This document shows, piece after piece, positions 1,886-9,226 of a stretch of 64,000 nt of DNA. Each line of letters opens with the position of its first letter. The stretch's first letter is position 1. Below the pieces are notes generated by a model that saw nothing but the letters and a program-made list of their open reading frames with translations, was not told the origin of the DNA and did not search any database. Both the position numbers and the translations under genes were made by a program. Source of the DNA: the human T2T-CHM13v2.0 reference genome, Homo sapiens; assembly GCF_009914755.1 (NCBI RefSeq), contig NC_060926.1. One strand, given 5' to 3'.

Positions 1886-1982
1886 CCTGACAATCGAACA
1901 CGGAATGTCATGAATTATAAGACTGTTCTGTTAGCAATTATTATAAGGCCTAAGTTTCATACATTCCAAACTCAAAAAAATT

Positions 1983-2412
1983 TTTTTTCTTTCTTTTTTT
2001 TGTAACAGCTTTATTGAGATTTAATGCATATACCACACAATTCACCAATTTAAAGTATACAATTCAATGGATTTTAGTATGTTTACAGAGTTGTGCAACT
2101 GTCACCACAATCAATTTTAAAACATTTCATCATCTCAAAAAAGCAAAACAAAAACACACCAAAAACTCTGTAGTTGCCAAGGCCTGGAAAGAAGGGAGAA
2201 TAGGTATGAGGTTTATGGTTGGGGGGATTAAAAAGAATTCTGGAATGAGATGGTATTATTTGTGCAACATTGTAAATGTAATTAATGCCACTGAATTATA
2301 CACTTTGAAATGGTTAAACTGAATCATGAAATGTGATCTTTTCTTTCTGATTTCTCTCTTAGCATGTTTTCAAGCTTCATCCTTGTTGTACCCTGTATCA
2401 ATACTTCATTAA
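1983..2412 (-). mobile_element. Old L1M (L1MB-like) 3' end fragments; probably part of a 3' transduction (see findings)
   Basis: T-tract then aacagctttattgagat...aaagtatacaattca, typical of the reverse complement of an L1MB 3' end. Confidence 0.7.
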
Positions 2413-2642
2413 TTTTTTTTTTTTTTTTTTTTGAGATGGAGTCTCGCTCTGTTGCCCAGGCTGGAGTGCAGTGGCACAAACTCGGCTCACTGCAAGCTCT
2501 GCCTCCTGGGTTCATGCCATTCTCCTGCCTCAGCCTCCCGAGTAGCTGGGACTACAGGTGCCTGCCACCATGCCCGGCTAATTTTTTTGTATTTTTAGTA
2601 GAGACAGGGTTTCACTGTGTTAGCCAGGATGGTCTCCATCTC
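2413..2642 (-). mobile_element. AluY-like, lacking its 5' ~70 bp, abutting the L1 poly(A)
   Basis: AluY-type segments (cactgcaagctc, tgttagccaggatggtc); sequence stops at ...ggtctccatctc. Confidence 0.9.
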
Positions 2643-2856
2643 TTTTTTTTTTTTTTAAATTATACTTTAAGTTTTAGGGTACATGTGCACATTGTGCAGG
2701 TTAGTTACATATGTATACATGTGCCATGCTGGTGCGCTGCACCCACTAACTCGTCATCTAGCATTAGGTATATCTCCCAATGCTATCCCTCCCCCCTCCC
2801 CACCACAGTCCCCAGAGTGTGATATTCCCCTTCCTGTGTCCATGTGATCTCATTGT

Positions 2857-6740: not shown

Positions 6741-7753
6741 TTACATTTGGGCATGATTTTGCAGTGGCTGGTACCGGTTGTTGCTTTCCATGTTTAGCGC
6801 TTCCTTCAGAAGCTCTTTTAGGGCAGGCCTGGTGGTGACAAAATCTCTCAGCATTTGCTTGTCTGTAAAGTATTTTATTTCTCCTTCACTTATGAAGCTT
6901 AGTTTGGCTGGATATGAAATTCTGGGTTGAAAATTCTTTTCTTTAAGAATGTTGAATATTGGCCCCCACTGTCTTCTGGCTTGTAGGGTTTCTGCTGAGA
7001 GATCCGCTGTTAGTCTGATGGGCTTCCCTTTGAGGGTAACCCGACCTTTCTCTCTGGCTGCCCTTAACATTTTTTCCTTCATTTCAACTTTGGTGAATCT
7101 GACAATTATGTGTCTTGGAGTTGCTCTTCTCAAGGAGTATCTTTGTGGCGTTCTCTGTATTTCCTGAATCTGAACGTTGGCCTGCCTAGATTGGGGAAGT
7201 TCTCCTGGATAATATCCTGCAGAGTGTTTTCCAACTTGGTTCCATTCTCCCCATCACTTTCAGGTACACCAATGAGACGTAGATTTGGTCTTTTCACATA
7301 GTCCCATACTTCTTGGAGGCTTTGCTCATTTCTTTTTATTCTTTTTTCTCTAAACTTCCCTTCTCGCTTCATTTCATTCATTTCATCTTCCATTGCTGAT
7401 ACCCTTTCTTCCAGTTGATCGCATCGGCTCCTGAGGCTTCTGCATTCTTCACGTAGTTCTCGAGCCTTGGTTTTCAGCTCCATCAGCTCCTTTAAGCACT
7501 TCTCTGTATTGGTTATTCTAGTTATACATTCTTCTAAATTTTTTTCAAAGTTTTCAACTTCTTTGCCTTTGGTTTGAATGTCCTCCCGTAGCTCAGAGTA
7601 ATTTGATCGTCTGAAGCCTTCTTCTCTCAGCTCGTCAAAGTCATTCTCCATCCAGCTTTATTCCGTTGCTGGTGAGGAACTGCGTTCCTTTGGAGGAGGA
7701 GAGGCGCTCTGCGTTTTAGAGTTTCCAGTTTTTCTGTTCTGTTTTTTCCCCAT
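6741..7753 (-). pseudogene. L1 ORF1, inactivated (TAA at codon 32, 7658-7660; ~4-bp deletion near 7186)
   Basis: ATGGGGAAAAAACAG start at 7753; ORF split into 7130..7651 and 6741..7133. Confidence 0.88.
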
Positions 7754-8208
7754 CTTTGTGGTTTTATCTACTCTTGGTCTTTGATGATGGTGATGTACAG
7801 ATGGGTTTTTGGTGTGGATGTCCTTTCTGTTTGTTAGTTTTCCTTCTAACAGACAGGACCCTCAGCTGCAGGTCTGTTGGAATACCCTGCCGTGTGAGGT
7901 GTCAGTGTGCCCCTGCTGGGGGGTGCCTCCCAGTTAGGCTGCTCGGGGGTCAGGGGTCAGGGACCCACTTGAGGAGGCAGTCTGCCCGTTCTCAGATCTC
8001 CAGCTGCGTGCTGGGAGAACCACTGCTCTCTTCAAAGCTGTCAGACAGGGACATTTAAGTCTGCAGAGGTTACTGCTGTCTTTTTGTTTGTCTGTGCCCT
8101 GCCCCCAGAGGTGGAGCCTACAGAGGCAGGCAGGCCTCCTTGAGCTGTGGTGGGCTCCACCCAGTTCGAGCTTCCCGGCTGCTTTGTTTACCTAATCAAG
8201 CCTGGGCA

Positions 8209-8424
8209 ATGGCGGGCGCCCCTCCCCCAGCCTCGCTGCCGCCTTGCAGTTTGATCTCAGACTGCTGTGCTAGCAATCAGCGAGACTCCGTGGGCGTAGG
8301 ACCCTCCGAGCCAGGTGCAGGATATAATCTCGTGGTGCGCCGTTTTTTAAGCCGGTCAGAAAAGCGCAATATTCGGGAGGGAGTGACCCGATTTTCCAGG
8401 TGCGTCCGTCACCCCTTTCTTTGA
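8209..8424 (+). CDS. L1 ORF0 (71 aa, MAGAPPPASLPPCSLISDCC...RCVRHPFL) in the antisense 5'UTR
   Basis: ATG at 8209 in GCAATGG context, open to TGA; matches recalled primate ORF0; expression unproven. Confidence 0.7.
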   Translation: MAGAPPPASLPPCSLISDCCASNQRDSVGVGPSEPGAGYNLVVRRFLSRSEKRNIREGVTRFSRCVRHPFL

Positions 8425-9226
8425 GTCGGAAAGGTAACTCTCTGACCCCTTGCGCTTCCCAAGTGAGGCAATGCCTCGCCCTGCTTCGGCTCACGCACAG
8501 TGCGAGCACTCACTGACCTGCGCCCACTGTCTGGCACTCCCTAGTGAGATGAACCCGGTACCTCAGATGGAAATGCAGAAATCACCCGTCTTCTGCGTCG
8601 CTCGCTCACGCTGGGAGCTGTAGACCGGAGCTGTTCCTATTCGGCCATCTTGGCTCCTCCCCAAACTCAAAAAATTAAGAAACCAATATGCCACCTCTGA
8701 CCACGTCCTTAGTAGCAGAGATTCTTGTGTATTTGTAAATTGCTGCCCTCTCTGTCTCTTAGCTCACATACTCTTTCCTCACTGATAGCACCACAGCAAA
8801 CACAGGTTTTAAGCAATTGCAAGTTGTTTAATTTTTTTAAACAAACCTTCATGAAAAAGTTATATAAGGTGAGAAATACGCAATCTCCCTCCCTCCTATA
8901 CCTATAAGAAATCTCTTATTATACAAACAATTAGCCTTCAAAATTATATATATATATATGAACTGGTACTAAGAGTTACTACTAACTCTTCTTCTCTGCC
9001 AGGATTTACCTTTAGCTTGAACAAGAAGAAGCAATGATTAGTTTTAAATATGCAGCTGATAAAGCAGATTATTGTCACTTTTTTCATTCTGGGTTTTCAA
9101 AATGTAAATGATGCTATTCATGTTTAATATTTTTATATTCCTGTCTTTATCAACAAAGGAGATTTGAACTTGGGCTTTTAGATGTTTAATAAGGATGTTT
9201 TTCACTTAGAGAGTAAAACTGCTTCA

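What the first reader, a model, noticed from the sequence alone, without database searches (positions are those of the whole stretch)
1966..8676. Intron-13 L1 appears to carry a hidden ~660-bp 3' transduction from another locus
Seen: no TSD sits directly at the L1 poly(A) (2643-2656). Instead the sequence at the L1 5' end, ccaaactcaaaaaatt (8661-8676), recurs at 1966-1982 (A7 vs A6), followed by a T-tract (1981-2001). The AluY next to the L1 tail lacks its 5' ~70 bp, and neither that piece nor the L1MB continuation is found beyond the L1. The L1's own signal reads AATTTAAA rather than AATAAA, while an AATAAA lies at 2010-2015 (minus) just ahead of the outer A-tract. Established: L1 transcripts read through weak poly(A) signals and mobilise 3' flanks. 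Inference: a source L1 that had inserted into an AluY nested in an L1MB was read through, and ~1983-2642 was imported into NEB. These old-looking repeats would then be recent arrivals that tag the parent element.
Basis: partly seen in the sequence, partly recalled or inferred. Interest (0 to 1): 0.8.

Follow-up and report, generated by a model that had tools for sequence, protein, structure and literature searches.

The report
L1 in NEB carrying chr11 flank
A full-length L1 jumping gene in intron 13 of the nebulin gene dragged about 660 bases of neighbouring DNA along from its parent copy on chromosome 11, which is a well-supported but ordinary case of a known process.

Summary
A minus-strand full-length L1 (2657-8660) is followed by its own A14, the 3' part of an Alu, the 3' end of an old L1M, and a second short A-tract. 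A duplication with a 14-nt exact core brackets this whole 6.7-kb unit (1966-1979 and 8661-8674). Those are its only two matches in the window; 0.10 were expected.

The predicted second locus exists at G000:C11:75678040-75684731. It aligns to window 8660->1979 at 98.27% over 6704 columns. There the L1 sits inside a complete Alu, with its own 12-14-bp duplication. The 'missing' Alu 5' part lies directly upstream, and the L1M continues on both sides.

Homology starts at the first L1 base. It ends about 24 nt after the L1M's AATAAA. The L1M block is 99.3% identical between the two loci, against at most 88% to other copies.

So chr11 is the source locus, and the NEB copy arose from a read-through transcript.

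The L1's AATTTAAA ending is common, not a private defect. Ape orthologues could not be checked. This is a textbook L1 3' transduction, and interest is low.

The parts
8661..8676 (-). 5' copy of the target-site duplication (AATTTTTTGAGTTTGG on the L1 sense strand)
   Evidence: It lies directly against the first L1 base. The 14-nt core has only two matches in the window.
2657..8660 (-). Full-length L1 of a young primate subfamily (6004 bp), starting GGAGGAGCC. Both reading frames are interrupted.
   Evidence: It differs by 1.27% from the C11 copy and by 1.95-2.22% from 12 other full-length copies. The longest ORFs are 173 aa (7130-7651) and 1210 aa (2857-6489).
2643..2656 (-). The L1's own A-tract (A14), carried inside the read-through transcript
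   Evidence: The C11 copy has A16 at the same place.
2433..2642 (-). Transduced Alu 3' part, starting with the 12 nt (gagatggagacc) that form the source L1's duplication at C11
   Evidence: 3 mismatches in 210 against C11.
2413..2432 (-). A-tail of the transduced Alu
2002..2412 (-). Transduced 3' end of an old L1M element, ending ...CTCAATAAAGCTGTTAC. The AATAAA is at 2015->2010.
   Evidence: 99% to C11 over 411 of 411, and at most 88% over at most about 150 nt elsewhere; 3 mismatches in 408.
1986..2001 (-). A-rich tail of the L1M (A8 G A3 G A3), templated from C11 and the last transduced bases
   Evidence: It is identical in C11 up to this point; there C11 continues G AAA CATTGAG.
1981..1985 (-). 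Short non-templated A-run (new poly(A), 3-5 nt, merging with the AA of the duplication)
1966..1980 (-). 3' copy of the target-site duplication (TTTTTTTGAGTTTGG on the sense strand)

Best explanation
The NEB intron-13 L1 is a retrotransposed copy of the L1 at G000:C11:75678040-75684056, or of a lost intermediate of that lineage, and it carries a 3' transduction.

At chr11 an L1 had inserted into an Alu that was itself nested in the 3' end of an old L1M, all in the same orientation. A transcript started at the L1's own 5' end. It ran through the L1's 3' end and its genomic A16, then through the Alu 3' part and the L1M 3' end. It was cleaved about 24 nt after the L1M's own AATAAA.

This roughly 6.7-kb RNA was reverse transcribed into NEB intron 13 by target-primed reverse transcription. 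The target reads ...CCAAACTCAAAAAATT/AAGAAACC... on the window + strand. The insertion produced a 14-16-bp target-site duplication around the whole unit.

Shown: the two-locus structure, the sharp homology ends, the duplications at both loci, and the near-identity of the 'old' repeats. Inferred: the RNA intermediate, the cleavage site, and the date. The date is roughly the time of the human-chimpanzee split, from 0.5-0.7% derived change per copy compared with a recalled figure of about 0.6% per lineage.
For: (1): window 2002-2412 has one other near-identical copy in the genome, C11:75684300-75684707 (99%, 411 of 411). All other matches are at most 88% over at most about 150 nt.

(2): window 8660->1979 aligns to C11 75678040-75684731 at 98.27% over 6704 columns, with 82 mismatches.

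(3): at C11 the L1 is bracketed by (AA)GAGATGGAGACC inside one Alu. The Alu's first 84 bp lie directly upstream of the L1. The L1M continues on both sides of that Alu, which has its own duplication TAATGAA[A/G]TACT.

(4): homology begins at GGAGGAGCC, the first L1 base in both loci. It ends inside the A-rich tail after AATAAAGCTGTTAC. The flanks beyond are unrelated.

(5): divergence is alike in the L1 body (76 of 5998, 1.27%) and in the transduced part (6 of 635, 0.94%), as expected if both were copied at once.

(6): the duplication core occurs exactly twice in the window, against 0.10 expected.

(7): the NEB and C11 L1 bodies share 29 states that are rare (at most 25%) among 12 other full-length copies. 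They are closer to each other (1.27%) than to any of the 12 (1.95-2.44%). Derived changes are 29 on the NEB copy, 42 on the C11 copy and 5 ambiguous (p = 0.15), so there is no significant asymmetry.

(8): the NEB flanks outside the duplications are single copy.
Against: - No empty site could be examined. Ape orthologues and other human haplotypes are not available here. One search found no unfilled copy in this haploid assembly, as expected.
- The new poly(A) is very short (3-5 nt). Priming may have used the templated A-rich L1M tail.
- The inferred nick site AATT/AAG matches the recalled TTTT/AA preference only in part.
- In the last 1.5 kb, with only 4 distant outgroups, derived changes were 3 on the NEB copy against 13 on the C11 copy. 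The full-length count with 12 outgroups was not significantly skewed. Those 12 were chosen as NEB's best matches, which may bias the count towards C11-derived calls.
- The L1's non-AATAAA ending is common (755 exact matches), so it does not single out this source as unusually prone to read-through.
Confidence: 0.95

Rival explanations
1. The Alu/L1M block is native to NEB intron 13. On this view the L1 inserted next to it with a target-site deletion, and the 14-16-bp repeat belongs to an older insertion or is chance.
For: L1 insertions with target-site deletions exist (recalled). The A-rich tract at 1981-2001 looks like the L1M's own tail.
Against: The L1M block is 99.3% identical to C11 (3 of 408), while other copies of this repeat are at most 88% identical. 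The Alu's missing 5' part and the matching duplication are at C11, not in NEB. The repeat abuts the first L1 base exactly. The 14-mer is expected 0.10 times in the window.
Confidence: 0.01
2. A DNA-level copy, by segmental duplication or gene conversion, moved the 6.7-kb segment from chr11 to chr2 without an RNA intermediate.
For: The two loci share 6.7 kb at 98.3% identity.
Against: The copied segment begins at the L1 transcription start. It ends about 24 nt after an AATAAA, followed by extra A's, and it is flanked by a short direct duplication at an A/T-rich site. No chr11 flank on either side was copied.
Confidence: 0.02
3. The event was a retrotransposition with transduction, but not directly from the C11 copy. 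An intermediate offspring, now lost or absent from this assembly and carrying the same transduced tail, was the immediate parent.
For: This cannot be excluded from two copies. The genome searches scored only the best candidates: 40 of 4175 and 27 of 14509.
Against: Three probes (the 411-bp L1M block, the L1/Alu junction and the Alu/L1M junction) each found only NEB and C11 in full length. An intermediate would also have had to re-use the same poly(A) site.
Confidence: 0.08

Closest known systems
L1 3' transduction. Mechanism as described in passages of PMC9311842 and of Hoyt et al., bioRxiv 10.1101/2021.07.12.451456. The founding papers by Moran 1999, Goodier 2000, Pickeral 2000 and Szak 2003 are recalled; the last two were seen only in a reference list.
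   Same: The layout is L1, then its own A-tract, then foreign 3' flank, then a second A-tract, all inside one target-site duplication. The flank is found directly 3' of a source L1 elsewhere. A poly(A) signal lies shortly before the end of the flank.
   Different: Nothing differs in kind. Particular to this case: the transduced DNA consists entirely of older repeats (an Alu piece and an L1M 3' end), so repeat annotation hides it. The downstream signal used is the ancient L1M's own AATAAA. The new poly(A) is only 3-5 nt.
Genome-wide catalogue of transductions in T2T-CHM13 (Hoyt et al., bioRxiv 10.1101/2021.07.12.451456; passages read).
   Same: It covers the same assembly and the same type of event. 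The passages report 183 highest-confidence L1 3' transductions, found with a modified TSDfinder.
   Different: I could not see its Table S13, because bioRxiv supplements are closed and the journal version is not held. So I cannot say whether this NEB/chr11 pair is listed.

Membership tests
L1 3' transduction | The L1 3' end with its own A-tract is followed by non-L1 sequence and then a second A-tract | tested here: met
   A14 at 2643-2656, 641 bp of Alu and L1M plus a 16-nt templated A-rich tail, then A5 at 1981-1985.
L1 3' transduction | The target-site duplication brackets the L1 plus the extra sequence, not the L1 alone | tested here: met
   the copies are at 1966-1980 and 8661-8676. The 14-nt exact core has its only two window matches there. 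There is no repeat at the inner A14.
L1 3' transduction | The extra sequence is found directly 3' of a related L1 at a source locus, where it is native | tested here: met
   at C11:75678040-75684731 the Alu is split by the L1 with its own duplication, and the L1M continues on both sides.
L1 3' transduction | A poly(A) signal lies 10-40 nt before the end of the transduced segment | tested here: met
   AATAAA at L009 8694-8699, with homology ending near 8723, about 24 nt later.
L1 3' transduction | The offspring and source L1 bodies are each other's closest relatives | tested here: met
   1.27% against 1.95-2.44% to 12 other full-length copies, and 29 shared rare states. Only 27 of 14509 candidates were scored, so closer copies are not excluded.
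L1 3' transduction | The integration site is of the endonuclease type (TTTT/AA-like; consensus recalled) | tested here: inconclusive
   the inferred nick is AATT/AAG on the + strand, a partial match.
L1 3' transduction | An empty pre-insertion site exists in an outgroup or another haplotype | not testable with these tools
   Only one haploid human assembly is searchable. One search found no unfilled copy in it.
   No repeat library is available. The 6.0-kb length, the roughly 2% distance to many other full-length copies and, from recall, GAG at the Ta-diagnostic triplet are consistent with a young pre-Ta primate L1.

The most novel reading that the evidence does not exclude
The insertion placed a demonstrably used poly(A) site in the sense orientation of NEB inside intron 13. 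That site is the L1M AATAAA at 2015->2010, which ended the chr11 read-through transcript. It arrived together with a full-length sense L1 whose 5' UTR is annotated as an enhancer (7871-8423). The unit could therefore create a lineage-specific premature end for NEB transcripts, or a regulatory input to NEB. In addition, the transduced tag would allow the activity of one chr11 L1 progenitor to be traced across ape genomes.
Probability: 0.07. Interest if true: 0.35.

Novelty: new member of a known kind. Interest (0 to 1): 0.2.

Why it matters
The result pins one parent-offspring pair of L1 elements (chr11 to chr2) with a unique tag. It shows that about 660 bp annotated as old Alu and L1M in NEB intron 13 arrived recently, so those repeats should not be used to date or align that intron as ancient sequence. 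It also illustrates that transductions made entirely of repeats are easy to miss. It does not change the understanding of L1 biology.

Tried and rejected
- Predicted empty site. I searched the assembly for it. Only the filled 5' junction matched, with 3 mismatches, so this is uninformative in a haploid genome.
- Indirect proof of flank contiguity. I asked whether the NEB flanks belong to a repeat whose other copies would show the flanks were once joined. Both flanks are single copy, so no such test is possible.
- Sibling copies. Two junction probes found only NEB and C11 in full length. The partial hits L013 and L014 turned out to be unrelated L1s lying next to antisense Alus.
- The L1 ending. 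I tested the idea that AATTTAAA is a private weakening of this lineage. I rejected it, because the ending has 755 exact matches in the genome.
- Polarising the differences. With 4 distant outgroups over the last 1.5 kb the count looked skewed, 3 against 13. I repeated it with 12 full-length outgroups and got 29 against 42, which is not significant.
- Literature. The search 'nebulin + LINE-1 + transduction' listed 7 papers, none relevant. Three further searches and the held supplement of PMC6191304 (0 occurrences of 'NEB') gave no record of this locus. Szak 2003, Pickeral 2000 and the journal version of Hoyt 2022 are not held.

Full report
**What is in the window**

Read on the minus strand, which is also the NEB strand, the region has the following order.

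- A 16-nt word AATTTTTTGAGTTTGG at 8676->8661.
- A full-length L1 at 8660->2657, starting GGAGGAGCC and ending ...AAGTATAATTT.
- The L1's own A14 at 2656->2643.
- An Alu that starts at 'gagatggagacc' and so lacks about 70 bp of its 5' end (2642->2433), with its A20 tail (2432->2413).
- The 3' end of an old L1M (2412->2002), ending ...CTCAATAAAGCTGTTAC.
- An A-rich tract A8 G A3 G A8 (2001->1981).
- TTTTTTTGAGTTTGG at 1980->1966.

The 14-nt core CCAAACTCAAAAAA (+ strand) has exactly two matches in the 64-kb window, at 1966 and 8661. That allows up to one mismatch. The expectation was 0.10, and 0 of 100 shuffles reached two. That includes TTTATT (AATAAA on the minus strand) at 2010-2015.

**The predicted second locus exists**

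I searched the window's own assembly with the L1M block 2002-2412. The search gave 44 matches. The window itself matched at 100%. One other full-length match was C11:75684300-75684707, at 99% and covering 1-411. All the rest were at most 88% over at most about 150 nt. Of 4175 first-look candidates, 40 were scored.

I fetched C11:75676001-75685900 as locus L009. blastn aligned window 8660->1979 to C11 75678040-75684731 at 98.27% over 6704 columns, with 82 mismatches and 13 gap openings. The NEB flanks gave no hit other than Alu-to-Alu cross-matches.

**Anatomy of the chr11 locus**

- The L1 (L009 2040-8056, then A16) lies inside one Alu.
- The first 84 bp of that Alu (L009 1956-2039) directly precede the L1 and end in AAGAGATGGAGACC.
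- After the A16 the same GAGATGGAGACC recurs and the Alu continues to its tail. The L1 therefore has its own 12-14-bp target-site duplication inside the Alu.
- The Alu in turn interrupts an L1M of the same orientation. L1M sequence lies upstream of the Alu and downstream of its tail. The Alu's own duplication reads TAATGAAATACT upstream and TAATGAAGTACT downstream.

**Ends of the copied segment**

Homology between the two loci begins at the first L1 base, GGAGGAGCC, in both. Upstream of it chr11 has Alu sequence and NEB has the duplication word.

Homology ends in the A-rich tail. Both loci read AATAAAGCTGTTAC A8 G A3 G A3. Then chr11 continues G AAA CATTGAG..., while NEB has five more A's followed by the duplication.

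The end lies about 24 nt after the AATAAA (L009 8694-8699, end near 8723). These are the ends expected of an RNA that started at the L1 promoter and was cleaved at the old L1M's own poly(A) site. They are not the ends expected of a DNA-level duplication.

**Divergence**

| Segment | Mismatches | Percent |
|---|---|---|
| L1 body | 76 of 5998 | 1.27 |
| Alu part | 3 of 210 | 1.43 |
| L1M part | 3 of 408 | 0.74 |
| Transduced stretch 2642->2002 | 6 of 635 | 0.94 |
| Overall | 82 of 6647 | 1.23 |
| Overall, outside CpG context | 52 of 6647 | 0.78 |

The young L1 and the 'old-looking' repeats are thus about equally diverged between the two loci, as expected if they were copied in one event.

**The L1 bodies are sister copies**

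I aligned both copies with 12 other full-length copies. These were the best genome matches to the NEB L1; only 27 of 14509 candidates were scored.

- NEB and C11 differ by 1.27%.
- NEB differs from the 12 by 1.95-2.22%, and C11 differs from them by 2.16-2.44%.
- The two copies share 29 states held by at most 25% of the 12.
- Polarised differences were 29 derived on the NEB copy, 42 derived on the C11 copy and 5 ambiguous (binomial p = 0.15).

A first attempt used only 4 distant outgroups over the last 1.5 kb. It gave 3 against 13, with 2 ambiguous. I regard that skew as unconfirmed. Because the 12 outgroups were chosen for similarity to NEB, a mild bias towards 'C11-derived' calls is possible.

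The per-copy derived change is 0.48-0.70%. Against a recalled figure of about 0.6% per lineage since the human-chimpanzee split, this places the event near that split. This date is an inference, not a measurement.

**Siblings and flanks**

Probes across the L1/Alu junction (window 2560-2740) and the Alu/L1M junction (2330-2500) each matched in full length only NEB and C11. That was 2 of 19 matches and 2 of 41 matches respectively. Two partial hits were unrelated L1s lying next to antisense Alus.

The NEB flanks 1885-1980 and 8661-8860 are single copy. A search for the predicted unfilled site found only the filled junction itself.

**The L1's poly(A) signal**

Both copies end ...GTATAATTT(A)n, so there is no AATAAA at the L1 end. 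This ending is common, however. The 23-mer has 755 exact genome matches (380 + 375), against 1807 (908 + 899) for the ...GTATAATAAAA form. Read-through here therefore needs no special defect of this source.

**State of the copies**

In NEB the longest ATG-started ORFs on the L1 strand are 173 aa (7130-7651) and 1210 aa (2857-6489). In C11 there is a 338-aa ORF followed by three ORFs of 364, 512 and 286 aa. In this assembly neither copy has both frames open at the full lengths I recall (338 and 1275 aa).

**Mechanism and rivals**

The best reading is classical L1 3' transduction from chr11 into NEB intron 13 by target-primed reverse transcription (confidence 0.95).

Weak points:
- No empty site could be inspected.
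- The new poly(A) is only 3-5 nt.
- The inferred nick site AATT/AAG fits the recalled TTTT/AA preference only partly.

A native Alu/L1M block with a target-site deletion is contradicted. DNA-level duplication is contradicted by the transcript-like ends. A lost intermediate copy cannot be excluded, but nothing requires it.

**What is known**

The mechanism is standard. Passages of PMC9311842 and of Hoyt et al., bioRxiv 10.1101/2021.07.12.451456, describe it.

Hoyt et al. report a genome-wide catalogue for this very assembly, with 183 highest-confidence L1 3' events. Their Table S13 could not be seen, so this pair may already be listed.

Searches for nebulin with LINE-1 and transduction, and three further searches, found no description of this locus. 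The held supplement of PMC6191304 had no 'NEB' entry.

**Verdict**

The finding is real and correctly interpreted, but it is an ordinary member of a well-known class.

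Noticed in passing
window 7871-8423: The RefSeq 'enhancer' feature lies entirely inside the 5' UTR of this L1. The L1 5' end is at 8660, and ORF1 in the C11 copy starts 903 nt in. The annotated enhancer is therefore L1 promoter sequence that arrived with the insertion.
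   Followed up: no
window 2657-8660 and 2010-2015: The full-length L1 and the transduced L1M AATAAA are in the same orientation as NEB (minus). The intron thus carries, in sense, a poly(A) site that was evidently used at chr11.
   Followed up: no
window 1894-2391 and 8428-8660: NCBI's repeat mask leaves the transduced L1M block and the first roughly 230 bp of the L1 5' UTR unmasked, although both are repeats. The L1M block had more than 40 genomic matches.
   Followed up: partly
genome-wide: The L1 3' ending ...CTTAAAGTATAATTT(A)n, which lacks AATAAA, has 755 exact matches in the assembly, against 1807 for ...GTATAATAAAA. A large share of young L1 copies therefore lack the canonical hexamer at their end.
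   Followed up: partly
window 2657-4156 versus L009 6551-8056: In the last 1.5 kb of the L1, derived changes looked skewed (3 on the NEB copy against 13 on the C11 copy, 4 outgroups). In the full-length count 17 of the 42 C11-derived sites fall below window 4160, against 4 of the 29 NEB-derived sites. This could be a local rate difference or a conversion tract at chr11, or chance.
   Followed up: partly
window 1550-1893: An unrelated plus-strand Alu with an (AAAAC)n-type tail (about 1838-1875) lies 70 bp from the insertion site.
   Followed up: no
L009 1380-1680 and 9005-9280: The chr11 source locus has two further Alus within 1 kb, one on each side. The first is 91.5% identical to the transduced Alu part.
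   Followed up: no
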